Below, one piece after another: positions 9,780 through 64,000 of a DNA stretch of 64,000 nucleotides. The notes beneath the pieces were generated by a model that was given only the letters and a program-made list of their open reading frames with translations, was not told where the DNA came from and did not search any database. The DNA lies in the NCBI GenBank assembly GCA_965203965.1, contig CBDBDR010000017.1, positions 278,440-342,439 of the forward strand, in the 5' to 3' direction. Numbering within the stretch: the first letter of the stretch is position 1; every line of letters begins with the position of its first letter. Source of the DNA: Thermodesulfobacteriota bacterium. GTDB lineage: Bacteria > Desulfobacterota_D > UBA1144 > Nemesobacterales > JAJCZQ01. A program made the translations under genes and the position numbers.

Positions 9780-10132
9780 TGGTGGAGGCGCTGGGAATCG
9801 AACCCAGGTCCGCTAAAGAGCCTCACTTAGCTTCTACATGCTTATCCTGCTTATTAAATTTCACAAGGCAAATACCAACAGGCGGGTCTAGCCTTGCAAT
9901 CCCGGTTTTAATCTCGCTGCTTTACCAACCGAGCAAAGTAAATCAGCCAGCCCGTTTTTATTACGCCTCATCAAGAACCACGGGCATGATCCCTGAGAGA
10001 CGTCACAGCATTATTTATGCTGCGAGTGCATTAATTGGTTCGGCACTTATTGTGCGCAATCAGTTTTACGAGTTAATCAGCTCGACATGCAGCTTAAGTT
10101 GTCTCGTTTACCGTCGAAGCCAATACGCCCCC
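9780..10132 (-). ncRNA. ssrA: tmRNA (SsrA), ~353 nt
   Basis: 5' end GGGGGCGUAUUGGCUUCGACGG… and 3' tRNA-like end …GGGUUCGAUUCCCAGCGCCUCCACCA. An internal reading frame ends …NALAA-UAA (candidate tag ~AEPINALAA). It sits immediately downstream of smpB. Confidence 0.9.

Positions 10133-13324: not shown

Positions 13325-13346
<22 letters not shown>
12240..13346 (+). CDS. ispG: 4-hydroxy-3-methylbut-2-enyl diphosphate synthase (IspG/GcpE)
   Basis: …ISIGGVDVGGGAAVSVQSMT… plus a C-terminal [4Fe-4S] cysteine region (CPGCGR…GCVVNGPGE). Start chosen at the internal Met (MFRKS…); the ORF opens at 12171. Confidence 0.9.
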
Positions 13347-13401
<55 letters not shown>

Positions 13402-52574: not shown

Positions 52575-52722
52575 GCCCCGTTGTCAAGTATGGTAAATTG
52601 CCGAGATGATCTATGACGTTTCAGGTTCTAACAAAATATGGGTTCAGAAAAAATAATACAGTAATAAAGTTTCTACAAATTTTCTCTTGACACACGGTTA
52701 TTTGTGCTTAAATTCTGGAATA

Positions 52723-53310
52723 ATGCAAAAGAAACTCGGTGATATTGCTACTGTTCAAATGGGATTTCCCTTTCGTTCACGTATTGAACCAGACGAGGAT
52801 GGAAATGTCTCTATTATTCAAATGAGCAATTTAGGAGAAAATAGTTTGAAGGCTCATACGGATCTGCTCAAGGTTTACCTAAAGAATATATCTCATAAGC
52901 ACTTAGTGAAACAAAAAGATTTGATCTTTCGTTCAAGGGGAAAAACAATAAATGCAGTGATAATTGATAAAGAAATTGAGCGAGCAGTCGTAGCGGCACC
53001 GTTAATTAGAATAAGAGTTACGGAAAAGGACGTTATTCCGGAATATCTTCTCTGGTTCATGAATCAGCCATTATCTCAAGCATTTTTGCACGGCAGAGCC
53101 ACCGGAACTTCAATGCCTATGATCGGTAAGTCAACTCTTGAAGATCTGCGGATTACTATCCCTGATCTTGAAACTCAAAGGCAAATCGTAATACTTGCTC
53201 ATTTATCGGACAAAGAGCAAAAACTAATGAAACGGTTGGCTAAGGCAAATGGTAGTTTAGTTCAAAAAACTTTGAAACAGTTGGTAACAGATCCTAAGAA
53301 GTCTTATTAG
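52723..53310 (+). CDS. hsdS: Type I RM specificity subunit, half-size (single target-recognition domain plus conserved region)
   Basis: ~195 aa with one target-recognition domain and the conserved helical region …LETQRQIVILAHLSDKEQKLMKRL… It is immediately upstream of hsdM. Confidence 0.7.
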   Translation: MQKKLGDIATVQMGFPFRSRIEPDEDGNVSIIQMSNLGENSLKAHTDLLKVYLKNISHKHLVKQKDLIFRSRGKTINAVIIDKEIERAVVAAPLIRIRVTEKDVIPEYLLWFMNQPLSQAFLHGRATGTSMPMIGKSTLEDLRITIPDLETQRQIVILAHLSDKEQKLMKRLAKANGSLVQKTLKQLVTDPKKSY

Positions 53311-53322
53311 AGGAGCAGAGAA

Positions 53323-54837
53323 ATGACAAATGGGACAATAGATCAAAAAAACATAGACAATGCTGCATGGTCTGCCTGCAACACTTTTCGTGGAGTGATG
53401 GACGCGTCCGTTTACAAGGACTACATACTCGTGATGTTGTTTCTCAAATATGTTTCGGATGTTTGGAAGAGCCATTATGAGAAATACAAAAAGCAATACG
53501 GAGACCACAAAGAGCGCATCAACCGCCTTCTTAAAAATGAGCGGTTTGTTTTGCCTAAAGACAGCAGTTTTTACAACCTGTATGAGAATCGTTCTGCTTC
53601 AAATATCGGTGAACTTATAAACATTGCGTTGACCGCATTTGAAGACGAAAACAAAGAGAAACTGGAGGGTGTTTTCCGCAACATTGACTTCAATAGCGAA
53701 ACAAATTTCGGCAAAACAAAAGACCGCAATCGCCGTCTTAAAACACTACTTGAAGATTTGAACAAACCAGAGTTGGATATGAGTCCAGATAATGTTACAG
53801 AAGACATTATCGGCAATACATACATCTATCTGATAGAGCGTTTTGCGTCCGATGCTGGCAAAAAAGCGGGAGAGTTCTACACACCTCACAAGGTTTCGGA
53901 GTTGGTAGCAAAGTTATGCGACCCCAAGCCCGGAGCACGCATTTGCGACCCTACTTGTGGTTCTGGAGGGCTTCTAATTGAAGCCGCGCGCGAAGTGGGT
54001 GGCGATGATTACTCTCTTTGTGGGATGGAAGTCAACGGAGGTACTTGGGCGCTTTGTCGGATGAATATGTTCCTTCACGGGATGGATTCAGCACGAATTG
54101 AATGGTGCAATACATTAACAGCCCCCGGACTCGTGGAAACCGACCGCCTGATGAGGTTTGACAATATTGTCGCAAATCCACCTTTCTCGTTGGATAAGTG
54201 GGGAGCGGAAGAAGCGGGAAACGACATTTACAAGCGTTTTTGGCGAGGAATTCCTCCCAAGTCTAAGGGGGATTACGCTTTCATCAGTCACATGGTGGAG
54301 GCAGCTCTGGAAAAGAAAGGGCGCATTGCGGTTGTTGTCCCACATGGTGTTTTATTCAGGGGCGCGGCAGAGGGGCGTATCCGTCGCCATTTAATAGAAG
54401 AAAATCTGCTGGATGCCGTCATCGGCTTACCGGGTAATCTTTTTCCAACCACGTCCATTCCGGTTGCTATCTTGGTGTTTGACCGTTCACGCGAGACAGG
54501 TGGTGCAAATGAGAAACTCAAGGATGTGTTGTTCATTGATGCAAGCCGTGAGTATGAGTCCGGAAAAAATCAGAACAAGCTACTGGACAAGCATATAGAA
54601 AAGATCGTTGACACATATAAAAAGCGTAAAAGTGTTGACAAATATGCGCATTTGGCAAAACCAGAAGAGATTGAAGAAAACGATTTCAACCTGAACATCC
54701 CGCGTTATGTGGACACCTTTGAGGAAGAAGAGGAGATAGATATAGACGCGGTGCAGCGAGAAATAGATCAACTGGAAAAAGAACTGTCCAAAGTGCGGAT
54801 GGAGATGGCGAAAAAAATGAAGGAGATTAAAAGATGA
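53323..54837 (+). CDS. hsdM: Type I RM N6-adenine DNA methyltransferase subunit
   Basis: N-terminal HsdM domain, motif I (DPTCGSGGLL), motif IV (NPPF). Confidence 0.9.
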   Translation: MTNGTIDQKNIDNAAWSACNTFRGVMDASVYKDYILVMLFLKYVSDVWKSHYEKYKKQYGDHKERINRLLKNERFVLPKDSSFYNLYENRSASNIGELINIALTAFEDENKEKLEGVFRNIDFNSETNFGKTKDRNRRLKTLLEDLNKPELDMSPDNVTEDIIGNTYIYLIERFASDAGKKAGEFYTPHKVSELVAKLCDPKPGARICDPTCGSGGLLIEAAREVGGDDYSLCGMEVNGGTWALCRMNMFLHGMDSARIEWCNTLTAPGLVETDRLMRFDNIVANPPFSLDKWGAEEAGNDIYKRFWRGIPPKSKGDYAFISHMVEAALEKKGRIAVVVPHGVLFRGAAEGRIRRHLIEENLLDAVIGLPGNLFPTTSIPVAILVFDRSRETGGANEKLKDVLFIDASREYESGKNQNKLLDKHIEKIVDTYKKRKSVDKYAHLAKPEEIEENDFNLNIPRYVDTFEEEEEIDIDAVQREIDQLEKELSKVRMEMAKKMKEIKR

Positions 54838-55055
54838 GCAAGATGCCAACAAATAAACATCATCAAACATTTGAGGATGCTTGTCGCCGTACGGAAAACG
54901 GCGCCGAATTTTGGTCTGCACGCGAACTTTTGTCCATTCTCGATTATGGAAGTTGGGATAAATTCAAGGCAGTCATTCATAAGTCTATAAGTGCTTGTGA
55001 GAATTCGGGCATGGTTTCCTCAGACCATTTTTCCCAGATGGGAAAAATGGTCTGA
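54834..55055 (+). pseudogene. DinD-like (DNA-damage-inducible protein D family) N-terminal fragment, 73 aa
   Basis: …HHQTFEDACRRTENGAEFWSARELLSILDYGSWDKFKAVIHKSISACENSG… resembles DinD N-termini. ATGA overlap with the hsdM stop; truncated. Confidence 0.4.
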
Positions 55056-55175
55056 AGGGTTCGGGTCGGAGGTAATGGCTAAACAGGAGAGAAAGGAACA
55101 GGCATTGTTGAAAAGGATAAAAAGGGCATAAAATAGGTATTTTTTGCCTATATCTACAACGACATATACACAAAA

Positions 55176-55745
55176 TTGAATTTTATGTACACATTAAGCA
55201 AACATATACATAATTTTGAGAGCATTCACCCGTTCCCTGACGGCAATGGTCGCATTGGTCGCGTGCTGAACGTGCTGTATCTGACGCACAAGGGGCTTTT
55301 AGACGCTCCCATCCTTTATTTGAGCCGAGCGATCAACCGCACAAAGCCAGACTACTACCGCTTATTGCAAGCCGTGCGTGAAGAGGGCGCATGGGAAGAA
55401 TGGATCATCTACATACTGAGTGCCGTTACAGAAACGGCAAAATCAACCTTGCAACTTGTATCGGGTATTCGGGAACTGATGGCTGAACACAAAAAACTTA
55501 TACGAGATGAACTGCCGAAAATCTACTCTCAGGACTTGTTGAATAATCTGTTTCGCAACCCCTATACGCGTATTGACTACGTGGCGAAAGACCTAACGGT
55601 TGACCGCAGAACAGCACGCAAGTATCTCAAACAATTAACTGAAAAGGGGATTGTGGAGGAAGTAAAGGCGGGGAGGAACAACTACTACATAAACAAAAAA
55701 CTGGTTGACCTGTTTGTCAGTGTCTCGGTGGAAGGGGATCAGTGA
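55176..55745 (+). pseudogene. Fic-family protein lacking the N-terminal half (begins just before the HPFPDGNGRIGR motif)
   Basis: Canonical Fic motif HPFPDGNGRIGR at residues 18-29, followed by a C-terminal wHTH-like region. A functional Fic fold needs ~100 aa upstream of the motif. Confidence 0.55.
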
Positions 55746-57895
55746 TGAGTAGGAAAGGGGAAAAGGAACGAGCGTTGCCCGATGGGTGGCAGGAAGTGAG
55801 GCTGGGGGACATAATGGAATTCAAAAATGGATTGAATACAGAGAAAGGAAACTATGGTAAGGGTGTAAAATTTGTGAACGTAATGGATGTTTTCAAGTTT
55901 AACTATCTTTATGAACATAATGTTGTTGGCTCTGTTCAAGTTAGTGAAAAAAACAGAATTGAATATTCAGTTAAATATGGGGATATCTTGTTTAATAGGA
56001 CATCTGAAATACTTAATGAGATTGCTATGTCATCTGTATATCTCGATGAGAAAAAAATAATCTTTGGAGGTTTTGTTATTAGAGGACGCCAAAAAATTAC
56101 TGCTCTTACTCCTCGATTTTCTATTTGTTGTCTTCAATCCAATAAAGTACGAAAAGAATTAATAAGACGAGGGCAAGGTGCCGTCCGAGCGAACATTGGA
56201 CAAAAAGATCTAGCGAAAATTCCTGTTGTTATTCCACCGCTCCCCGAACAAAAAGCCATCACCTCTTTACTGGAAACATGGGACACGGCGATTGAGAAAA
56301 CTGAAGCATTGATTGAGGCAAAGGAAAAGCGGTTCAAGTGGTTGCTGAAAACACTCATCAGCAATCAGCAAGACAATCCTGAATGGCGGGAAGTGAGGTT
56401 GGGGGATGTTACGAAGGTTATTGTAGGCCAGTCTCCAAAAGGGATTTTCTATAATACAGAGGGTGAGGGCATGCCCTTCTATCAAGGTAAATCTGAATTT
56501 GGGAAAATCTACATTAACAATCCTAATATGTGGACTACTCAAACAACTAAAACGGCAGAGAAAGGCGATATTCTTATGTCCATTAGAGCTCCTGTTGGGT
56601 CAATTAACCGTACAAATAACAAAATTTGCATTGGCCGAGGGCTTGCTAGTATTAGGGTTCATAGCATCAAACGAACGTTCTTATTTTTTTACTTGCAGTT
56701 TATCAAAAGCCAAATAATAGGAAATGGTGGCTCTATATTCAATTCGATTACTAAGCGTCAAGTTGAACAAATTCCAATTCTTTGCCCCCCAGTTTCTGAA
56801 CAAAAAGCCATTGCTGCTGTACTAAACACGGTACAACGTGAAATTGATCTACTGGAACAACTCACCCAACAATACCGCACACAAAAGCGCGTGCTGATGC
56901 AGAGATTATTGACAGGAGAATGGAGGACAAAGATGAATCGTTATATTCTGAGAATGGGCACTTACGAGTGTCCTAAAACAGTAATTAAAAAAGAAAGATT
57001 TGAACAATTAAAGGAAGCGAGAAATATCTTGTCAAAAGCATTGGTTTTTGAGGGGAATTACGAGATTATAGTGCATAATTACCTTGAGTTGGAAAAAGAA
57101 TTGATGGGAATTACTATTGAAGATATTGGTAGAACTTATTATAGTTATGATGATTTCTTCAATTATACACTTTCTTCTAATATCAGAGTATCAAACCTTC
57201 TGAATTCGGCAAAATTTTACATTGATACACTTTCGCAAACTCTCGAGAACTGCTTTCAAAATGAGGAAGTTTCTCCTGATATAAAACAAATAATCAAAGA
57301 GGATGAGGGCAACTCGCTTCTTGAATTTGTTTATGAACTAAGGAACTATCTTCAGCATGTTGATTTGCCAGTGCATAACACCTTAATAAATAGAAGATGG
57401 ACAGATGACAATCTTATGGAATATTCCACGCATATCTTTTCTTCAAAGAAATATCTTTCAGAGGATGAAAAGTCAGAATCAATACTTAAAAAAATGGAAG
57501 AACAAAAAATAATGAAAGAAGAAGAAATAAACCTAAACCTTACCATTAGACACTATGTAGAATTCATCAGTAAAATGCATATTCAAACGAGATCTAAGAT
57601 AGAAAAAAGAGTTAATGAGGCAAGAGATTGCATAGAATCTACGATTAAGGAATATTTAGACGAACATAGGATTAAGGAAAAGGAATATTTAGATGAAGAT
57701 GGGAAGTTTATAGGTTTTTTACATGCTTTCCATTTCAACCATAGTGAAATAGAAGAGAAAATTCCTTTGTTTCTGGATTACGACGATGTTCGTCTTAATC
57801 TAATACGTAAGAACAACAAAGAACTGGTTAATCTACATAAACGATATGTTACAACACGAGTTGATTCAGTAAATAAGAAGGAAATATCTAAATAA
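55742..57895 (+). CDS. hsdS: Type I RM specificity subunit HsdS (two target-recognition domains, aa ~1-395) fused in-frame to a ~320-aa Lys/Glu-rich C-terminal domain with an Rx4H (HEPN-like) motif; a candidate Abi_2-like abortive-infection domain
   Basis: Conserved HsdS central and C-terminal regions (…YRTQKRVLMQRLLTGEWRTK). There is no stop where the downstream repeat copies of this region carry their TGA, and the frame continues into MNRYIL… The motif ELRNYLQH sits at 57341-57358. Confidence 0.7.
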   Translation: MMSRKGEKERALPDGWQEVRLGDIMEFKNGLNTEKGNYGKGVKFVNVMDVFKFNYLYEHNVVGSVQVSEKNRIEYSVKYGDILFNRTSEILNEIAMSSVYLDEKKIIFGGFVIRGRQKITALTPRFSICCLQSNKVRKELIRRGQGAVRANIGQKDLAKIPVVIPPLPEQKAITSLLETWDTAIEKTEALIEAKEKRFKWLLKTLISNQQDNPEWREVRLGDVTKVIVGQSPKGIFYNTEGEGMPFYQGKSEFGKIYINNPNMWTTQTTKTAEKGDILMSIRAPVGSINRTNNKICIGRGLASIRVHSIKRTFLFFYLQFIKSQIIGNGGSIFNSITKRQVEQIPILCPPVSEQKAIAAVLNTVQREIDLLEQLTQQYRTQKRVLMQRLLTGEWRTKMNRYILRMGTYECPKTVIKKERFEQLKEARNILSKALVFEGNYEIIVHNYLELEKELMGITIEDIGRTYYSYDDFFNYTLSSNIRVSNLLNSAKFYIDTLSQTLENCFQNEEVSPDIKQIIKEDEGNSLLEFVYELRNYLQHVDLPVHNTLINRRWTDDNLMEYSTHIFSSKKYLSEDEKSESILKKMEEQKIMKEEEINLNLTIRHYVEFISKMHIQTRSKIEKRVNEARDCIESTIKEYLDEHRIKEKEYLDEDGKFIGFLHAFHFNHSEIEEKIPLFLDYDDVRLNLIRKNNKELVNLHKRYVTTRVDSVNKKEISK

Positions 57896-58030
57896 TAAAT
57901 GACTTCATCTCAATTATTATAAGATTGAACAAAATTGTTTGATCTTATAAATTCTTGAGGTCTATGAAAAGCCTTGGAATTAACAAGACCACAGGCTACC
58001 GAATTGGCTCAACGGCTCAAAAAGAAATAA

Positions 58031-58355
58031 ACTTGCTCAAACAATTATCTGAACAATACCGCACTCAAAAACGCGGGCTGATGCAGAAGTTGCTGACTGG
58101 AGAATGGAGGGTAAAGATATGATTACAAAAATCACGATGAACAATGTTACCAGTTTTAAAGAGAAAACCAGATTCATCTTTAACCGCTTGGGTTATGAAT
58201 TTTCTAATGCGGTTCAAACGCCCATTAAAGGCAGAGTTAGCCCTTCTACGTAAGGTCAAAGTTCTGGTTGGATCAGTGCGTCTTCTTTCTGCCATTATGG
58301 GTTTTACCTTTGAGCTTCATCCAAGCCACAAAACGTGGTAATGTAGTATAATTTT
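58031..58355 (+). repeat. Direct repeat R1 core (325 bp): an hsdS 3'-end copy (…QYRTQKRGLMQKLLTGEWRVKI*) plus a 45-codon 5' stub of an AAA_15/RloA-like ATPase gene (MITKITMNNVTSFKEKTRFIF…)
   Basis: ~93% identical to 59816-60140. A further homologous stretch (58440-58700 vs 60230-60480) extends each copy to ~650 bp. Confidence 0.8.
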
Positions 58356-58794
58356 CATTTACTAATAGTATAGTTTTTTCTGTATAATAATTTTCAGCAA
58401 TTCAGTATAGAAATAACGTTTTCTACATGATGAAACAAAGTTTGATCATTTGGAATTATACTGTTCCATGATCAGGTCTATAAAGAGTTTTACAATGGGT
58501 GAAGCCATTCCTCAGACTCAGTCGGCGGAGTTGTATTGGCGGTTACGAGAGCCAAGCGGGCAAAACCACGCTGGCGTATCGTACGAAAATGTTCAATACA
58601 TTGAACAAAATTGTTTGATCTGATAAATTCTTGAGGTCTATGAAAAGCCTTGGAATTAACAAGACCACAGGCTACTGAACTGGCTCAACAGCTCAAAAAG
58701 AAATAGACTTGCTCAAACAATTAGCAGAACGATACCGCACTCAAAAGCGCGGGCTGATGCAGAAGTTGCTGACTGGGGAGTGGAGAGTGAAGAG

Positions 58795-59742
58795 ATGAGC
58801 ACATCTTTTAAAATATTAAGCATAGATGGTGGAGGAGTGCGAGGAATTCTTCCCGCCAAGATACTGAAGCTCATGGAAGCCGAGCTCGGCATAGACGTAC
58901 ATGAAACCTTTGATCTCATTGTTGGCACTAGCACTGGTAGTATCATAGCTGGGGCAATCGCCGTAAAGTACAAATTGGCTAAATTAGTAAGTGATTACAA
59001 TGAAAATGCTCCGAAAGTTTTCAAGAAAAGATGGAATTTCATGGGGCTTTACAGATCTAAATACAGTTCAGCCTTCCTTGAAAGTTTTCTTCGTAAAATA
59101 TTTGGTGAGGTTACATTGGGAGAAATAGAAAAACCGCTCATTCTTAATGCTACAAATATCAGCGATGGTAATCTTCATGTTTTCAAGTCATCGTATCAAA
59201 AAAAACAACGAGAGGGGGAAGAGGAGCAGGTTTATAACAGGGATGGAGGAGTACCTTTGTACAAAGCAACTCTAGCCTCTTGTTCGGCACCAATTTATTT
59301 TGATCCGGTGAAGATAATATTTGATCCGGTGGATAAAGAAGAAAAACTTATTTGTGACGGGGGTATTTGGGCTAATAATCCTTCCTTGGTTGGATACAGT
59401 GACGCTATCAGGAATTTCAAGAATGTTGGAACCGATAATGTCAAGATCTTGTCTTTGGGAACTGGACAAACCAAGCAAATTTACCAACCAGCAAAAGCAT
59501 GGGGATACTTAACGGGATGGAAACATACGAAATTGATAGACTTCTCCATATCATGTCAGACAGAGTTTCCTAAAAATGTTTTGGAACTTATTGATTTAGA
59601 TAAAATTCTCAGGATCAACCCTTCTATTGATAATTACGAGATTGACAATTACCAAAGCATCCCAAAGTTAATGGAACTGGCTAAAAAGGAATTCAATAGT
59701 AGCAGTGAAAAAATTTCAAATTTTCTTAACATAAGAAGATAG
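58795..59742 (+). CDS. Patatin-like phospholipase (PNPLA family)
   Basis: Oxyanion hole SIDGGGVRGI, nucleophile elbow GTSTG (GxSxG), catalytic Asp motif CDGGIWANNP. ~316 aa. The start codon (GTG) overlaps the last hsdS 3'-end copy (copy B). Confidence 0.8.
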   Translation: MSTSFKILSIDGGGVRGILPAKILKLMEAELGIDVHETFDLIVGTSTGSIIAGAIAVKYKLAKLVSDYNENAPKVFKKRWNFMGLYRSKYSSAFLESFLRKIFGEVTLGEIEKPLILNATNISDGNLHVFKSSYQKKQREGEEEQVYNRDGGVPLYKATLASCSAPIYFDPVKIIFDPVDKEEKLICDGGIWANNPSLVGYSDAIRNFKNVGTDNVKILSLGTGQTKQIYQPAKAWGYLTGWKHTKLIDFSISCQTEFPKNVLELIDLDKILRINPSIDNYEIDNYQSIPKLMELAKKEFNSSSEKISNFLNIRR

Positions 59743-59815
59743 GAGACAAAAATTACAGTTTACGAGGAAAAATTTGTTCTCTTTTCTGATAGGTATTCCT
59801 GTCAAAAAGAAATGG

Positions 59816-60140
59816 ACTTGCTCAAACAATTAGCAGAACGATACCGCACTCAAAAACGCGGTTTGATGCAGAGGTTGTTGACTGGAGAATGGAGGGTGAA
59901 GATATGATCACAAAGATCACGATGAACAACATCACCAGTTTTAAAGAGAAAAGCAGATTCATCTTTAACCGCTTGGGTTATGAATTTTCTAATGAGGTTC
60001 AAACGCCCATTAAAGGCAGAGTTAGCCCTTCTACGTAAGGTTAAAGTTCTGGTTAGATCAGTGCGTCTTCTTTCTGCCATTATGCGTCTTACCTTTGAGC
60101 TTCATCCAAGCCACAAAACGTGGTAATGTAGTATAATTTT
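59816..60140 (+). repeat. Direct repeat R2 core (325 bp), copy of R1: hsdS 3' end (…LLTGEWRVKI*) plus the ATPase 5' stub
   Basis: See R1. Together R1 and R2 bracket the patatin gene. Confidence 0.8.
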
Positions 60141-60408
60141 TTCCACCCAATATGGAGAAAAAACTGTATAGAAATTTTTACTGATTGTTGTATAAAAATA
60201 GAATTATAAGGCTGAATTTTCGGCATTATATTGCTCCATGATCAGGTCTATAAAGAGTTTTACAATGAGTGAAGCCATTCCTCAGACTCAGTCGGCGGAG
60301 TTGTATTGGCGGTTACGAAAGCCAAGCAGGCAAGACCACGCTGGCGTACCGTACGAAAATGTTCAGTACATTGAACAAAATTGTTTCATCTGATAAACTT
60401 TCACATCT

Positions 60409-60687
60409 ATGAAAAGCCTGGAATTAACAAGACCACAGGCTACCGAACTGGCTCAACGGCTCAAAAAGCCTTGCCGGTTTATTCAGTCCATATCGGGGGC
60501 GAAGCAGAAAAGAAAAGTCGCTTTGCTGATATTGGGTGAGGTGCAGAAGTTTCCACACTGGTCAGCGATTGTAAAATATCTTTGGGATGAAGATAGTCGC
60601 ATGAAAAGAATGGTGGCGGCAAAGTGCCTGTTTCGTTTCCCAGATTGGACGTTTTTTGCAAAATATTCAAAACTGCTCAGCAGTTGA
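60409..60687 (+). pseudogene. Degenerate copy of the DUF4143 AAA ATPase gene (61018-62223) with two large internal deletions; the Walker A region is lost
   Basis: N-terminus MKSLELTRPQATELAQRLKKPCRFIQSISGAKQ matches the intact gene, then jumps to …KRKVALLILGEVQKFPHW…SRMKRMV…FPDWTFFAKYSKLL. Confidence 0.6.
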
Positions 60688-60726
60688 TCGTTTCCTGTCA
60701 ACGCCTGCGGAACATTGGTTAAATTG

Positions 60727-60897
60727 ATGCCTGATTTTCTATTTGACGAAAAAAGCCTCTCCCAGATCCCAGCTTTACAGCAGTTGATCAATCCAGTGCA
60801 ACAATTGGTTTTTGGGATGAATGGAAGAAAGAAAAGGATGGACAAAGGAATAAAAGAATCTATTGAAACATTAAGAAAACAGAGTAAATCTCAATGA
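60727..60897 (+). pseudogene. Duplicated 5' fragment of hsdR (first ~21 codons, MPDFLFDEKSLSQIPALQQLI) followed by unrelated sequence
   Basis: Near-identical to the hsdR start at 62223 (MPDFLSDEKCLSQIPALQQLI). The preceding ~60 nt also match the 3' end of the intact ATPase gene. Confidence 0.5.
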
Positions 60898-60946
60898 AAA
60901 TAACACTAAAACAGGGGAAGCAAGCACTGCTTTTAAATAACAAAAA

Positions 60947-60986
60947 TGTTCAATACATTGAACATTTTTGTTCAATGTATTGAACA
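60947..60986. promoter_or_regulatory. Two tandem operator-like palindromes (TGTTCAAT-ac-ATTGAACA and TGTTCAAT-gt-ATTGAACA, centres 22 bp apart) 32 bp upstream of the ATPase gene
   Basis: Perfect 8-bp inverted arms. Single copies or remnants precede each ATPase 5' fragment (58595-58612, 60362-60379, partial at 57927-57945). Confidence 0.4.
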
Positions 60987-61017
60987 AAATTGTTCAGTCT
61001 GATAATCTTTTTAGGCG

Positions 61018-62223
61018 ATGAAAAGTCCGAAATTCATAAGACCTCAAGCCACCGAATTATTGCGACGACTCAAAGAGCCTCGCCGGTTTATTCAATCCAT
61101 ATCGGGGGCGAGGCAGATCGGCAAAACAACCCTTGCCCTACAAGTGGCAGAGCAAAGCCGATTGCCTTATCACTTTGCAAGTGCTGATAGGCCGACGCTT
61201 CGCGCCGGTGATGGATGGATCGTGTCGCAATGGAAGGAGGCGCGACATCTGGCGGAACAATCAAAAAGGAAAGGCGCTTTGCTGATATTGGATGAGGTGC
61301 ATAAGGTTCCACACTGGCCAGCGACTGTAAAAGGTCTTTGGGATGAAGATACTCGCATGAAAAGAATGGTGAAGGTGGTGCTGCTCGGTTCAGCACCGCT
61401 GTTGATCGGGCGAGGACTTACGGAAAGCCTCGCCGGGCGTTTTGAAACCGTGTATCTGCCACATTGGAGTTTTCCCGAGATGCGAGATGCCTTCGGATGG
61501 GATTTGCAACAATATCTTTTTTACGGTGCCTATCCGGGAGCCTCACCCTTCATAAAACAGCCGGCGCGCTGGTCGCGCTACATAAAGAACTCTCTTATAG
61601 AAACAACCATTTCCCGCGATGTGCTTTTATTTTCCCCTGTGGACAAACCGGCTTTGCTTAGGCAATTGTTCGAGATGGGTTGTTCCTATTCGGGGCAGGT
61701 ACTCTCTTACAGAAAACTTGCAGGACTGCTTCAGGATAAAGGTAACGTTACCACCCTTGCGCATTACCTTGACTTGCTCGCCGGAGTCGGCACGGTTGCC
61801 GGGTTGCAAAAATATGCGGGTAGCTTCGGGGCACGCCGGCGTTCCATACCCAAACTTCAAGTCTTCAACACTGCCCTGATCACCGCGCAATCTGGGATGA
61901 CCTGGCAGGAGGTGTTCAAAGATGGACGACTGCTGGGGCGGCTTACGGAGTCGGCCGTGGGAGCTCATCTGCTCAATGCAGCCACTGGCGGGGAGTGTGA
62001 ATTATTCTATTGGCGAGATAACAATCGCGAAGTAGATTTTGTTTTGCGCAGAGGAAAGAAGCTTGTTGCCATAGAAGTAAAAAGCGGTAAAATGCCTGTT
62101 TCGTTTCCCGGATTGGATGCTTTTTCCAAAATATTCAAAACTGCTCAGCAGTTGATTGTTGGTGAAGGCGGAATTCCCATTGATCGTTTCCTGTCAACAC
62201 CTGCGGAACATTGGTTAAATTGA
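61018..62223 (+). CDS. AAA+ ATPase of the AAA_14/DUF4143 family
   Basis: Walker A SGARQIGKTTLA, Walker B LLILDEVHK, C-terminal DUF4143-like region. Strongly GC-rich compared with its surroundings. Its stop overlaps the hsdR ATG. Confidence 0.8.
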   Translation: MKSPKFIRPQATELLRRLKEPRRFIQSISGARQIGKTTLALQVAEQSRLPYHFASADRPTLRAGDGWIVSQWKEARHLAEQSKRKGALLILDEVHKVPHWPATVKGLWDEDTRMKRMVKVVLLGSAPLLIGRGLTESLAGRFETVYLPHWSFPEMRDAFGWDLQQYLFYGAYPGASPFIKQPARWSRYIKNSLIETTISRDVLLFSPVDKPALLRQLFEMGCSYSGQVLSYRKLAGLLQDKGNVTTLAHYLDLLAGVGTVAGLQKYAGSFGARRRSIPKLQVFNTALITAQSGMTWQEVFKDGRLLGRLTESAVGAHLLNAATGGECELFYWRDNNREVDFVLRRGKKLVAIEVKSGKMPVSFPGLDAFSKIFKTAQQLIVGEGGIPIDRFLSTPAEHWLN

Positions 62224-64000
62224 TGCCTGATTTTCTATCTGACGAAAAATGCCTCTCCCAGATCCCAGCTTTACAGCAACTGATAAATCTGGGCTATGAG
62301 TATCTGCCACCTGAACAGGCGTTTCAGGAACGCAATAGCAAATACGGCAATGTTTTGCTGGAAAACATACTGCGAGACCAACTCAAAAAAATAAACCGCA
62401 TTAATTATAGAGGCAGAGAATACCTTTTCAGTGAGGAGAACATTCAGTCTGCCATTGAGAAGATCAAAAACATTCCATATGACGGTTTGATAAAAACAAA
62501 TGAAAAGATCTACGATCTTTTGACGCTTGGCACGTCGCTTAAGCAGACCATTGAGGGCGATTCCAAAAGTCACACACTTCGCTATATTGACTGGGAAAAT
62601 ACGAATGCAAATGTTTTTCACGCCACTGCGGAGTTTTCGGTTGAACGTTCCCGGAGTTCTGAAACTGTAAGACCGGACATTGTGCTGTTTGTAAACGGCA
62701 TTCCTCTTGTTGTGATTGAGTGCAAAACGTCCGGAGTTGCCGTGGATGAAGGCGTTTCTCAGATGATCCGCAATCAGGGAGAGGATCATATTCCTCGCCT
62801 TTTTACTTATGTGCAGTTGGTAATGGCTGTAAATAAGAATGAGGCAAAATACGCGACCGCCGGAACTTCAAAGAAATTCTGGAGCGTCTGGAAAGAGTTA
62901 GAAGATCACGAAGATGAAACAAAAACCATTGTGGATCAACCGCTTTCAGATGAGAACAAGAATGTTCTTTTTTCTTCCAATGAATTTGCTTATGCCCGTG
63001 CGCATTTTGATAAAATTGAGAGCCAAGGTGGACGTCTTGTTACGGAACAAGATAAAGCAGTTCATAGCCTGTGCCGTCCTGAGCGCCTGCTTGAGATCGT
63101 TTACGGGTTTACAATTTTTGATAGTAAAACAAAAAAAATTGCCAGATACCAACAGTTCTTTCTTGTTCGCTCGGCAATTAAAAACATCAAAACAAAAAAC
63201 AGTGAGGGTGTGAGAAAAGGTGGGATCGTGTGGCACACGCAAGGTTCTGGTAAATCCATAACAATGGTTATGCTCACGCGAGCCCTTGTGATGGATCCGG
63301 AACTGAAAAACACGCGGATCATTCTTGTTACAGACCGCAAAGATCTGGACGAACAACTCGGCAACACCTTTGCTGCTTGCGGTTTGAACAAAGAACGCGC
63401 CACTTCGGGACGTGATCTGGTCAAGCATATAAAACGCAAGACGGACATTATCACCACGTTGATAAACAAATTTGAAACGGCATCTGCTGCCGAAAAATAC
63501 GTAGATGATTCACCTGATATTATCGCTCTTGTGGACGAGAGCCACCGCACAAATTTCGGGGAATTGTCCGCAAATATGAGGAGGATGCTTCCAAAGGCAT
63601 GCTTTATAGGTTTTACCGGCACTCCGTTGCTAAAAAAAGAGAAAAACAGTTTTGCGCGCTTTGGGGAGTTGATTGAGCCGTCTTATCCGGTCAGAGCAGC
63701 CATAGATGACAAACAGGTTGTCCCTCTGATCTACGAGGGTCGGCATGTGGAGATAAAACAGGATAAAGAAGCCATTGATAAATGGTTTGCCCGTCATACT
63801 GAGGGGCTTTCCGATAAACAGAAAACTGATCTAAAGAAAAAATATTCACGTGCTGCAAAACTGAACAATTCCGATAGGGTCATCTATATGACGGCTTTTG
63901 ACATTAGCGAGCATTTTCGCGCCAATTGGAAAGAGACGGGAGAGATGGGATTTAAGGCTCAACTTGTGGCTCTGAACAAGGCAACTGCTCTTAAATATCA
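62223..64000 (+). CDS. hsdR: Type I restriction enzyme R subunit HsdR, N-terminal ~592 codons; continues beyond the window
   Basis: The reading frame is open to the window end. HsdR N-terminal nuclease region (…IVLFVNGIPLVVIECKTSG…) and SF2 helicase motifs (TQGSGKS, VDESHR). Absent from the ORF track because there is no stop in the window. Confidence 0.85.
   Translation, partial: MPDFLSDEKCLSQIPALQQLINLGYEYLPPEQAFQERNSKYGNVLLENILRDQLKKINRINYRGREYLFSEENIQSAIEKIKNIPYDGLIKTNEKIYDLLTLGTSLKQTIEGDSKSHTLRYIDWENTNANVFHATAEFSVERSRSSETVRPDIVLFVNGIPLVVIECKTSGVAVDEGVSQMIRNQGEDHIPRLFTYVQLVMAVNKNEAKYATAGTSKKFWSVWKELEDHEDETKTIVDQPLSDENKNVLFSSNEFAYARAHFDKIESQGGRLVTEQDKAVHSLCRPERLLEIVYGFTIFDSKTKKIARYQQFFLVRSAIKNIKTKNSEGVRKGGIVWHTQGSGKSITMVMLTRALVMDPELKNTRIILVTDRKDLDEQLGNTFAACGLNKERATSGRDLVKHIKRKTDIITTLINKFETASAAEKYVDDSPDIIALVDESHRTNFGELSANMRRMLPKACFIGFTGTPLLKKEKNSFARFGELIEPSYPVRAAIDDKQVVPLIYEGRHVEIKQDKEAIDKWFARHTEGLSDKQKTDLKKKYSRAAKLNNSDRVIYMTAFDISEHFRANWKETGEMGFKAQLVALNKATALKY

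What the first reader, a model, noticed from the sequence alone, without database searches (positions are those of the whole stretch)
58031..60480. ~650-bp direct repeats bracket the patatin gene; the hsdS 3' end occurs in three extra copies
R1 (58031-58700) and R2 (59816-60480) are ≥90% identical over their core blocks (e.g. 58031-58355 vs 59816-60140, and 58478-58700 vs 60236-60480). Each contains an hsdS C-terminal segment (QYRTQKRGLMQKLLTGEWRVKI), a 45-codon ATPase stub and an ATPase-start module. A third hsdS-tail copy (58700-58795) is fused directly to the patatin start. Direct repeats of this length allow RecA-dependent deletion or amplification of the patatin cassette. The reuse of the hsdS tail as a junction suggests that cargo genes are exchanged by recombination within this conserved segment.
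Basis: seen in the sequence. Interest (0 to 1): 0.65.

Follow-up and report, generated by a model that had tools for sequence, protein, structure and literature searches.

The report
Recombination scars bounding stacked defence-gene cassettes
The repeats are real: they are leftover pieces of the specificity gene (hsdS) and of an ATPase gene, and they mark where anti-phage genes were stacked one after another inside a type I restriction-modification operon and can be gained or lost by recombination.

Summary
Observation confirmed. R1 (58017-58700) and R2 (59802-60468) are 91% identical overall and 92-94% in the core blocks. The hsdS 3' end occurs four times.

The locus is a type I R-M operon: half-hsdS, hsdM, hsdS, then PDC-S01 ATPase and hsdR. 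Its gene junctions are filled with accessory genes. Between hsdS and the ATPase lies an array of cassettes. Each starts with a ~105-nt hsdS tail (S), and most end with the ATPase's upstream palindrome plus its first ~21 codons (A). R itself is a dead cassette. The patatin is a CBASS-type lipase with no cyclase in the window.

In two other contigs the same patatin sits directly behind a complete hsdS, with an ATGA stop/start overlap, and is followed by its cyclase. A sister strain has the same array plus one extra 3.06-kb KAP-NTPase cassette. That insertion/deletion maps exactly between two S copies.

Best reading: stacked allelic cassettes joined at a microhomology, now substrates for homologous gain and loss. 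This resembles Rhs/CDI and T6SS orphan arrays, but sits in an R-M operon. Embedded defence genes are already known; the scar-bounded stacking is a modest new variant. No integrase-like machinery was found.

The parts
52687..53310 (+). Half-size hsdS (one target-recognition domain), upstream of hsdM
   Evidence: Pfam Methylase_S, E 5e-14. The same gene is present in L003, L005 and L086.
53323..54837 (+). hsdM
   Evidence: Pfam HsdM_N + N6_Mtase, E 3e-100.
54834..55055 (+). Truncated Bro-N/DinD-like gene. This is the displaced cargo at the hsdM/hsdS junction.
   Evidence: Weak Pfam Bro-N hit, E 0.003, below the curated cut-off. tblastn to the full-length Bro-N gene of L086: 48% identity, E 2e-14.
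55088..55131 (+). Orphan hsdM 3' tail remnant (...LLKRIKRA*) in front of the Fic gene
   Evidence: blastn of 55088-55225 to L004 3650-3786, 81%. That stretch overlaps the third hsdM-tail copy of L004, 3630-3693.
55176..55745 (+). 5'-truncated SoFic gene
   Evidence: PADLOC SoFic, E 2e-66, matching only profile positions 188-358 of 361. Full length (366 aa) in strain L005.
55742..56932 (+). Functional hsdS. Its last ~105 nt are the resident tail S0. Here it is fused in frame to cargo1.
   Evidence: Pfam Methylase_S, two stretches. The fusion is seen in the ORF list and by comparison with L003, which has 'GGACTCAAAGATGA' against window 'GGACAAAGATGA'.
56933..57895 (+). cargo1, a 320-aa protein of unknown function
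   Evidence: No hit in Pfam, PADLOC, NCBIfam or PHROGs. A 41% identical homologue lies directly after hsdS in L025.
57924..58025 (+). A1: palindrome half-site plus the first ~21 codons of an AAA_14 ATPase allele (with a +1 frameshift), ending at the A|S joint
   Evidence: Repeat family D1; alignment A1.
58017..58700 (+). R1, a decayed cassette. It comprises S1 tail 58017-58122, stub ORF 58119-58253, a phage-like fragment, an AT-rich spacer 58356-58460, a frameshifted ATPase 5' fragment 58496-58585, palindrome 58590-58607, and A2 (ATG at 58640).
58173..58295 (-). 5' fragment resembling a phage head-morphogenesis gene, inside R1 (weak match)
   Evidence: phrog_758, E 2.7e-4, residues 3-41 of the minus-strand ORF 58065-58295. 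No DNA match in the phage collection.
58692..58798 (+). S2: hsdS tail whose stop overlaps the patatin start
58795..59742 (+). Patatin-like phospholipase of the CBASS effector (CapV) type. No cyclase was found in the window.
   Evidence: Pfam Patatin. NCBIfam CBASS_lipase, 206 bits against a cut-off of 200. PADLOC phospholipase Effector, E 3e-81. No SMODS or SEC-C homologue in the 64-kb window.
59802..60468 (+). R2, the second copy of the decayed cassette. It comprises S3 59802-59907, stub 59904-60038, ATPase 5' fragment about 60266-60355, and palindrome 60360-60377. Its A3 module runs on into the deleted ATPase.
60409..60687 (+). Old ATPase copy with two internal deletions
   Evidence: Segments match the intact ATPase at 79%, 91% and 91% and skip 61118-61263 and 61372-62083 (D6, D8, D9). 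Weak Pfam AAA_14 hit.
60684..60793 (+). Duplicate of the ATPase 3' end plus the first 24 codons of hsdR
   Evidence: 95% identical to 62180-62289 (D7). The junction is confirmed in the short-read contig L001.
60794..60897 (+). 3' fragment of an unidentified gene, joined to the hsdR head
   Evidence: ORF 60715-60897. No family hit.
60947..60986 (.). Pair of 18-nt palindromes TGTTCAATRYATTGAACA upstream of the intact ATPase
   Evidence: Four copies in the window, all in this locus, against 0.04 expected by chance. Also found upstream of ATPase homologues in L012 and L013, with blastn matches in L009 and L015.
61018..62223 (+). Intact AAA_14/DUF4143 ATPase (PADLOC candidate PDC-S01)
   Evidence: Pfam. 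PADLOC PDC-S01, 536 bits.
62223..64000 (+). hsdR (runs off the window)
   Evidence: Pfam HSDR_N, SWI2_SNF2, ResIII.

Best explanation
The repeats are recombination scars that bound stacked gene cassettes inside a type I R-M operon.

In the simple form of this operon, one accessory (defence) unit sits between hsdS and the next conserved gene (the PDC-S01 ATPase or hsdR). Its start codon overlaps the hsdS stop.

In this lineage, several allelic versions of that interval were added one after another instead of replacing each other. Each carries the last ~105 nt of an hsdS and, mostly, the upstream palindrome plus the first ~21 codons of an ATPase. The joint between 'ATPase head' and 'hsdS tail' lies in a shared 9-15-nt microhomology (CAACnnCTCAAAAAG).

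The founding event was therefore an illegitimate join. It could have been homology-facilitated illegitimate recombination of incoming operon DNA anchored in a conserved hsd or ATPase gene, or an unequal sister-strand exchange followed by allelic replacement.

Displaced cassettes then decay:
- R1 and R2 are dead cassettes.
- The patatin has lost its CBASS cyclase.
- The old ATPase carries two internal deletions.
- SoFic and Bro-N are truncated.

Once present, the S, A and R copies are direct repeats. Ordinary homologous recombination can delete, add or convert cassettes across them.

Shown: the anatomy, the native hsdS-patatin arrangement elsewhere, the S-to-S insertion/deletion between strains, and mosaic patches among S copies. 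Inferred: the order of events, the HFIR step and RecA dependence.
For: 1. Anatomy.
2. The S copies are about 90-95% identical to each other but only 70-75% to the resident tail. The A copies are 79% identical to the resident ATPase start. They therefore derive from other alleles rather than from recent copying of the resident genes.
3. L086 and L087 show the unstacked parent arrangement: hsdS, patatin (ATGA overlap), SMODS cyclase, SEC-C, hsdR. L025 has a cargo1 homologue directly after hsdS.
4. Twelve MAG loci share the backbone hsdM...hsdS-[0 to 6.6 kb of variable cargo]-ATPase-hsdR, so this interval is a hotspot.
5. Sister strain L003 has the same array plus a 3058-bp KAP-NTPase cassette exactly between two S copies. 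The window's S2 has the left flank of one copy and the right flank of the other.
6. Gene-conversion patches: a 25-nt stretch of the window's functional tail is identical to a displaced S copy of L003, not to L003's functional tail.
7. The same kind of scar occurs at other junctions. There is an hsdM-tail remnant before Fic. The ATPase-tail/hsdR-head segment is duplicated in the window (D7) and in L010 and L011. L004 has three hsdM tails.
8. No recombinase-like ORF lies between 52.6 and 64 kb.
9. The process has a published precedent in Rhs/CDI orphan arrays and V. cholerae T6SS immunity arrays (PMC5361080).
Against: - Multi-S arrays were found only in this lineage (the window and L003). The twelve homologous operons from other MAGs each show a single hsdS tail at tblastn sensitivity.
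- The exact S-start pattern has no match in the GTDB representative genomes or in the JGI metagenomes.
- J1 and J2 share the same joint and the same +1 frameshift in A. At least some boundaries therefore arose by copying an existing joint rather than by independent integrations.
- R1 and R2 have persisted in both strains, so deletion across them is not frequent.
- No read-level data were available.
- HFIR and sister-strand duplication followed by allelic replacement predict the same structure and cannot be told apart here.
Confidence: 0.7

Rival explanations
1. Purely local history. A single in-situ segmental duplication of R took place, and the patatin gene was later inserted between the two copies. 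No stacking of alleles from other operons was involved.
For: R1 and R2 are 91-94% identical and lie 1785 bp apart. J1 and J2 share the identical joint and the same frameshift in A.
Against: - The unit between the copies is not duplicated: there is one patatin.
- S, A and the ATPase fragments differ by 20-30% from the resident genes.
- Patatin with the same tail overlap exists behind a complete hsdS elsewhere.
- There are several different joint types: A|S, patatin flank|S, hsdR head|X, and Walker-A fragment|palindrome.
Confidence: 0.12
2. The S tails are kept by selection because they work for the cargo. The tail encodes GEWRV. Its GGAG/GGAGG sequence lies 8-14 nt before the ATG of each cargo, and its stop overlaps that ATG. 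It would therefore supply a ribosome-binding site and translational coupling. This reading is compatible with the scar origin.
For: The ATGA or ATATGA overlap is kept at S1, S2 and S3, and in L003, L086 and L087.
Against: - Only about 20 nt would be needed, yet ~105 nt are retained.
- L003 S4 has an in-frame TGA.
- L003 S2 (before the KAP cassette) has lost the overlap and lies about 200 nt from the next gene.
- The cargo behind S1 and S3 is a dead stub.
Confidence: 0.1
3. A dedicated site-specific system (integron-like or shufflon-like) uses the hsdS tail as its recombination site.
For: The array consists of same-strand, single-unit cassettes with a recurring boundary sequence. All S copies share the left edge ACAACTCAAAAAG.
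Against: - No integrase, invertase or transposase ORF lies between 52.6 and 64 kb, and the upstream flank is housekeeping.
- The boundaries are 100-nt coding remnants, not attC-like hairpins.
- The only palindrome belongs to the ATPase upstream region and also occurs outside R-M contexts.
- The insertion/deletion between strains lies within an ~85-nt identical stretch, as expected for homologous exchange.
Confidence: 0.04
4. An assembly artefact, or a chimera of co-existing strains in a metagenome-assembled genome.
For: The source is a metagenome-derived 1.5-Mb contig. Co-existing strain variants exist (L003, L005). The L003 contig ends inside R2.
Against: - The L003 contig (labelled 15x in its record name) independently shows R1, patatin and R2 in the same order.
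- L001 and L002, from two other sequencing runs, match 60713-62229 at 100% and begin or end at repeat copies, as expected for real repeats.
- R1 and R2 differ at 6-9% of sites, so they would not be collapsed or duplicated by an assembler.
Confidence: 0.04

Closest known systems
Defence genes embedded in type I R-M operons: PrrC in EcoprrI; TgvAB in V. cholerae VPI-2 (PMC11411939); rlo/mlo genes of C. jejuni hsd loci (cited in PMC5183652); embedded candidates PDC-S/M of Payne et al. (bioRxiv 10.1101/2024.01.29.577857)
   Same: Accessory genes lie between hsd genes on the same strand. The cargo here includes known or candidate defence proteins: SoFic, a CBASS lipase and PDC-S01.
   Different: Those reports, as far as I read them, describe embedded units and do not address how they get in. 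The word 'recombination' does not occur in the Payne preprint. Here several units are stacked, and each is bounded by duplicated ends of the flanking conserved genes.
Rhs/CDI 'C-terminal displacement' orphan arrays and V. cholerae T6SS orphan immunity arrays (PMC5361080)
   Same: An intact conserved gene is followed by displaced modules. The displaced modules also occur in full context in other genomes, and array content differs between strains. Homology-facilitated illegitimate recombination is the proposed mechanism. From my own knowledge, not checked in a paper here, Rhs/CDI orphan modules likewise keep a piece of the conserved gene's 3' part.
   Different: The conserved gene here is hsdS (and, at other junctions, hsdM or the ATPase), not a toxin. 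The modules are defence genes. The far boundary is the 5' end of the next conserved gene. This locus is an analogue in process, not a member of those families.
Phase-variable type I systems with several hsdS genes (S. pneumoniae SpnIII, PMC4948785; REBASE survey, PMC7394358)
   Same: Several hsdS-derived sequences lie in one type I locus and recombine with one another.
   Different: Those systems have silent hsdS copies that carry target-recognition domains, and the pneumococcal locus switches by DNA inversions. Here the extra copies are direct repeats and lack recognition domains. Recombination changes cargo content, not specificity.
Integron cassette arrays
   Same: An ordered array of same-strand cassettes lies behind a fixed gene, and cassette content differs between strains.
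   Different: There is no integrase and no attC. The boundaries are coding remnants used by general recombination.
CBASS with a patatin (CapV) effector
   Same: The patatin passes the NCBIfam CBASS_lipase cut-off. Its relatives in L004, L086 and L087 are followed by an SMODS cyclase.
   Different: No cyclase is present in the window. The system is incomplete here.

Membership tests
Type I R-M operon with embedded genes | hsdM, hsdS and hsdR on one strand | tested here: met
   Pfam hits for all three.
Type I R-M operon with embedded genes | Non-hsd genes nested between hsd genes in the same orientation | tested here: met
   The Bro-N fragment, SoFic, cargo1, patatin and the PDC-S01 ATPase all lie on the + strand between hsdM and hsdR.
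Displacement-type orphan array (Rhs/CDI/T6SS-like process) | Displaced modules each keep a fragment of the conserved upstream gene | tested here: met
   S1, S2 and S3 precede the stub, the patatin and the second stub. An hsdM-tail remnant precedes Fic.
Displacement-type orphan array (Rhs/CDI/T6SS-like process) | Modules occur in full, unstacked context in other genomes | tested here: met
   Patatin in L086 and L087. cargo1 homologue in L025. No full-context parent was found for the R content.
Displacement-type orphan array (Rhs/CDI/T6SS-like process) | Array content varies between close strains | tested here: met
   A 3058-bp KAP cassette is present in L003 and absent in the window.
Displacement-type orphan array (Rhs/CDI/T6SS-like process) | The locus encodes a polymorphic toxin with immunity genes | tested here: not met
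   The locus is an R-M operon. It is therefore an analogue of the process, not a member of the family.
Phase-variable hsdS shufflon | Additional hsdS copies carrying target-recognition domains | tested here: not met
   The extra copies are only ~105-nt tails. The separate half-hsdS at 52687 lies upstream of hsdM and is conserved in other strains.
Phase-variable hsdS shufflon | Inverted repeats between hsdS copies | tested here: not met
   All S copies are direct repeats. No inverted pair among them was found.
Integron | intI integrase next to the array | tested here: not met
   No such ORF lies between 52.6 and 64 kb. The region beyond hsdR is outside the window.
Integron | attC-type imperfect palindrome at each cassette end | tested here: not met
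   The only recurrent palindrome is the ATPase upstream 18-mer. Cassette ends are gene fragments.
CBASS | CD-NTase (SMODS) cyclase adjacent to the effector | tested here: not met
   tblastn with the L086 and L004 cyclases finds nothing in the window.
CBASS | Effector of a CBASS family | tested here: met
   NF041079, 206 bits against a cut-off of 200.
Simple tandem duplication | Head-to-tail copies of one unit with a single novel joint | tested here: not met
   The R copies are separated by a unique patatin cassette, and at least four different joint types are present.

The most novel reading that the evidence does not exclude
The conserved ends of the operon's backbone genes (hsdM tail, hsdS tail, ATPase head and tail, hsdR head) act as portable homology handles. 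Together they make an integrase-free cassette system. Defence genes that travel with about 100 nt of these ends could then be added, swapped or dropped by general recombination. This could happen even between distantly related symbionts that share the backbone. HsdM is 73-80% and the ATPase 72-81% identical in amino acids across MAGs labelled as several different phyla. Exact nucleotide matches of 25-32 nt exist between the window's S and A modules and Latescibacterota, Oxydemutatoraceae and Thermodesulfobacteriota loci.
Probability: 0.25. Interest if true: 0.7.

Novelty: new variant of a known kind. Interest (0 to 1): 0.45.

Why it matters
Many defence systems are found embedded inside R-M, BREX and similar operons. 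How they get there and how they are exchanged has not been worked out: the survey that defined the embedded candidates does not discuss recombination.

This locus and its sister strain preserve the joints. They show three things:
- Cargo moves together with the 3' end of the preceding hsd gene.
- Allelic cargos can be stacked instead of replaced.
- The resulting direct repeats mediate clean cassette gain or loss.

This gives a concrete, testable model for turnover at embedded hotspots. It also gives a search signature for finding such arrays elsewhere: orphan hsdS or hsdM tails without recognition or catalytic domains.

The locus does not reveal a new molecular machine, and most of the stacked cargo here is decayed.

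Tried and rejected
- **Rfam**, on the locus at lenient E-values and on the whole window at gathering score. It found only a tmRNA and a tRNA far away, and no RNA family in the repeats.
- **Promoter and terminator scan.** Counts equal those in shuffled sequence, so it is uninformative.
- **Exact S-start pattern** TCAAAAAGAAATRRACTTGCTCAAACAA. No hits in the GTDB representative genomes or in the JGI metagenomes.
- **Exact-protein look-ups.** The patatin (two possible starts) and the A1-S1 fusion ORF are not on record.
- **Homologue search with the 44-aa stub.** No candidate, so the 'ATPase stub' label stays unverified. My recollection that MITKI...SF resembles the N-terminus of AAA_13/PrrC-like ATPases is only a lead.
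- **R1 interior.** tblastx and blastn against all fetched loci and the rest of the window found only the palindrome and a 25-nt Walker-A stretch. There was no match in the phage collection.
- **Naming the organism.** Cluster members and a TonB-receptor search returned no names.
- **Repeats in Latescibacterota loci** that at first looked like junction duplications. They turned out to be a different element, the tandem CCCATCTGCG motif, and were set aside.
- **Shufflon, integron and simple tandem-duplication readings.** Rejected on the membership tests.
Full report
**1. Observation**

The window region 52.6-64 kb was read directly, scanned for repeats and listed for ORFs.
A divergent, gapped AT-rich centre lies at about 58355-58460.
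- The two core blocks are 93-94% (58017-58316 vs 59802-60101) and 92% (58438-58627 vs 60208-60397) identical.
- The hsdS 3' end is present four times (family D3).
- The third extra copy ends with its TGA overlapping the patatin ATG at 58795.

Similarity of this length cannot arise by chance.

**2. What the locus is**

Pfam identifies the following genes:
- a half-size hsdS (52687-53310);
- hsdM (53323-54837);
- the C-terminal half of a Fic protein (55176-55745);
- a two-domain hsdS (55742-56932);
- a patatin (58795-59742);
- an AAA_14/DUF4143 ATPase (61018-62223);
- hsdR (62223 to the window end).

PADLOC and NCBIfam refine three of these. The Fic protein is a 5'-truncated SoFic. The ATPase is the defence candidate PDC-S01 (536 bits). 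The patatin passes the curated cut-off of the CBASS cGAMP-activated phospholipase family (206 bits against 200). No CD-NTase or SEC-C homologue exists anywhere in the 64-kb window, so the lipase is an orphan effector here.

The 320-aa protein after hsdS (cargo1, 56933-57895) has no family hit.

**3. Anatomy of the array**

Two boundary modules recur between hsdS and the intact ATPase.
- **S** is the last ~105 nt of an hsdS gene (...TTQKEIDLLKQLAERYRTQKRGLMQKLLTGEWRVKI*).
- **A** is the region upstream of an ATPase gene, with an 18-nt palindrome TGTTCAATRYATTGAACA, plus the first ~21 ATPase codons.

The order of elements is:
1. hsdS (with resident tail S0), cargo1, A1
2. S1, stub, A2 (this block is R1)
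3. S2, patatin, a 58-nt flank
4. S3, stub, A3 (this block is R2), running on into an old ATPase copy with two internal deletions (60409-60687)
5. a duplicate of the ATPase tail plus the first 24 hsdR codons (60684-60793, 95% identical to 62180-62289)
6. a 3' fragment of an unknown gene
7. two palindromes, the intact ATPase, then hsdR

This order rests.

R itself contains the following:
- a 44-codon ORF with no detectable relatives;
- on the minus strand, a weak match to the first ~40 codons of a phage head-morphogenesis family (phrog_758, E 2.7e-4);
- an AT-rich spacer;
- a frameshifted 5' fragment of yet another AAA_14 ATPase, reading IPQTQSAELYWRLREPS...GKTTLA. I recognised this fragment by reading the sequence and the ORFs; a 25-nt Walker-A match supports it.

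R is thus a decayed cassette, not a functional unit.

The palindrome occurs four times in the window, only in this locus, against 0.04 expected by chance. It also lies upstream of ATPase homologues in other genomes. It therefore belongs to the ATPase gene, not to a recombination system.

**4. The joints**

All extra S copies, in the window and in the sister strain, share the left edge ACAACTCAAAAAG. The ATPase 5' end reads GCTCAACGGCTCAAAAAG (AQRLKK), and an hsdS tail reads ...ACAACTCAAAAAGAAATAGAC (TTQKEID). The A|S joint therefore lies in a 9-15-nt microhomology, which is the signature of an illegitimate join.

The extra S copies are about 90-95% identical to each other but only 70-75% to the resident tail. 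The A copies are 79% identical to the resident ATPase start. They are therefore not fresh copies of the resident genes.

J1 and J2 share the joint and a +1 frameshift in A. At least one boundary was therefore copied from another.

**5. Comparative evidence**

*5a. Sister strain L003.* A 99% identical patatin led to L003, a 49.8-kb long-read contig labelled 15x in its record name. It is 95% identical to the window through hsdM. It carries hsdS with unrelated recognition domains, then cargo1, A|S, R, A|S. An extra unit follows: a 280-aa coiled-coil protein, a KAP NTPase and a 114-aa protein. Then come S, patatin, S and R, up to the contig end.

The two strains differ by a 3058-bp segment lying exactly between two S copies. 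The window's S2 has the left flank of the first copy and the right flank of the second. The switch lies inside an ~85-nt nearly identical core. This is what homologous recombination between direct repeats produces.

Six sites pair window-R1 with L003-R1 and window-R2 with L003-R2, against one site for the other pairing. The R duplication is therefore older than the strain split.

Patches of identity between non-orthologous S copies indicate gene conversion. For example, 25 nt of the window's functional tail equal a displaced L003 copy.

*5b. Unstacked parent operons.* L086 and L087 are two contigs from other samples. They carry hsdM, then hsdS, patatin (ATGA overlap), SMODS cyclase, SEC-C, an optional Bro-N, hsdR and a YgjP-like gene; L086 also has the half-hsdS upstream. 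S2+patatin in the window is thus a fragment of such an operon that has lost its cyclase.

*5c. A shared backbone with a variable interval.* A scan of GTDB representative genomes with the ATPase returned 80 loci. The closest (72-81% amino-acid identity) lie in MAGs labelled Poriferihabitaceae, Nitrospirales, Pseudomonadales, Oxydemutatoraceae, Thermodesulfobacteriota, Latescibacterota and Porifericomitaceae. Several of these names suggest sponge symbionts.

Twelve of the loci have the same backbone, with HsdM 73-80% identical where it is intact. Between the hsdS tail and the ATPase they carry 0 to 6.6 kb of unrelated cargo. One of them has a cargo1 homologue directly after hsdS (L025). The interval is therefore a hotspot.

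Each of these loci has only one S tail at the sensitivity used.

*5d. Scars at other junctions.*
- The window has an hsdM-tail remnant at 55088-55131, between a Bro-N fragment and the truncated SoFic.
- L004 has three hsdM tails and a duplicated patatin-end/cyclase block.
- L010 and L011 have insertions flanked by duplicated ATPase-tail/hsdR-head segments, as the window does at 60684-60793.

*5e. Independent confirmation.* Short-read contigs from two other sequencing runs match 60713-62229 at 100%. They start or stop at repeat copies.

**6. Mechanism**

The best-supported reading is as follows. Allelic versions of the hsdS-to-ATPase interval were stacked instead of replaced, through a join at the microhomology. 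Two routes are possible. One is homology-facilitated illegitimate recombination of incoming operon DNA anchored in a conserved gene. The other is an unequal sister-strand exchange followed by allelic replacement. The two routes cannot be separated with the present data.

Displaced units then decayed. The repeated S, A and R modules now serve as substrates for ordinary homologous recombination and conversion.

The same logic has been proposed for Rhs/CDI orphan toxin arrays and for V. cholerae T6SS orphan immunity arrays (PMC5361080).

No recombinase-like ORF lies in 52.6-64 kb. The upstream flank is housekeeping: cobA-hemD, rsmE and ccm genes.

RecA dependence, the direction of growth and the donor identity are inferred, not shown.

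**7. Relation to what is known**

Genes embedded in type I R-M operons are well documented:
- PrrC (reviewed in PMC12707154);
- TgvAB (PMC11411939);
- the C. jejuni rlo/mlo genes (PMC5183652);
- the systematic 'guilt-by-embedding' survey that defined PDC-S01 (bioRxiv 10.1101/2024.01.29.577857).

That survey does not mention recombination. In seven full-text searches I found no paper describing duplicated hsd gene ends as cassette boundaries. This absence is limited to the library searched.

The locus fails the defining tests for a phase-variable hsdS shufflon: the extra copies have no recognition domains and are direct repeats. It also fails those for an integron (no integrase, no attC) and for a complete CBASS (no cyclase).

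**8. Verdict**

The specific prediction about the patatin cassette is untested, and the repeats flanking it have been stable since the two strains split.

The finding is a clear and well-preserved example of scar-bounded cassette stacking in an R-M operon. It is a new variant of a known evolutionary process, not a new system.

Interest is moderate (0.45). It would rise if a wide survey showed that hsd gene ends serve generally as homology handles for exchanging defence genes between distant taxa.

Noticed in passing
window 56920-56940 vs L003 5085-5105: In the window, hsdS is fused in frame to cargo1, giving a 717-aa ORF. The sister strain reads GGACTCAAAGATGA (stop overlapping the next ATG), whereas the window reads GGACAAAGATGA. 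I could not tell whether this 2-nt difference inactivates HsdS, makes a functional fusion, or is a consensus error.
   Followed up: partly
window 55810-56231 and 56410-56839 vs L003 3988-4409 and 4588-5002: Both target-recognition domains of hsdS have no detectable nucleotide similarity between the two strains, which are otherwise 95% identical in this region. The central conserved region (56232-56409) is 91% identical. The strains should have different R-M specificities.
   Followed up: partly
window 60947-60986; also 58590-58607, 60360-60377; L012 9929-9946, L013 9907-9924: An 18-nt palindrome, TGTTCAATRYATTGAACA, lies upstream of PDC-S01 ATPase genes and is paired in front of the intact gene. 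It is conserved in MAGs of other phyla, including loci with no detected hsdM/hsdR homologues. It may be an operator or a hairpin that regulates the ATPase.
   Followed up: partly
window 54834-55745; L005 11512-13030: The hsdM/hsdS junction shows the same stacking: a truncated Bro-N gene, an orphan hsdM tail, then a SoFic gene that is 5'-truncated in the window but full length (366 aa) in a third strain.
   Followed up: partly
window 58173-58295 (minus strand) and its copy in R2: A ~40-codon stretch weakly resembles the N-terminus of a phage head-morphogenesis protein (phrog_758, E 2.7e-4). If real, a scrap of phage DNA was captured inside the R-M operon.
   Followed up: partly
L004 1-8941: A 1x long-read contig from the same metagenome carries another type I operon. 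It has three copies of the hsdM 3' end and a CBASS unit (patatin plus SMODS). It also has a second copy of the patatin-end/SMODS block behind a Fic fragment. The patatin ORF there begins with a Fic N-terminal fragment and a relic of the hsdS tail. The low coverage calls for caution.
   Followed up: partly
L006-L025: The operon backbone occurs in MAGs labelled as at least six different phyla or orders, several with sponge-associated names. HsdM is 73-80% and the ATPase 72-81% identical in amino acids. This points to wide horizontal spread of one type I R-M family.
   Followed up: partly
L018 812-843 and 11218-11248; L019 11201, 14468, 17815; L020; L021: The Latescibacterota loci carry a short tandem motif, (C)CCATCTGCG repeated 3 times, at several intergenic boundaries. 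It looks like a lineage-specific intergenic repeat and is unrelated to the scars described here.
   Followed up: no
window 57001-58000 vs 61001-62000: Base composition is sharply mosaic inside the operon. GC is 0.31 over cargo1 and 0.52 over the ATPase, against about 0.39 for the surrounding chromosome. This is consistent with parts of different origin.
   Followed up: no
window 58340-58420 and 60140-60200: The divergent AT-rich centre of R contains several GTATA(A/G)-type motifs followed by T or A runs, including a TAGTATAAT box at 58343-58352. The R1-type and R2-type spacers are each shared with the corresponding L003 copy. Their function is unknown.
   Followed up: no
window 9780-10132 (minus strand): A tmRNA gene (Rfam, 185 bits). 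There is also a tRNA at 13328-13401. These are ordinary chromosome features.
   Followed up: no
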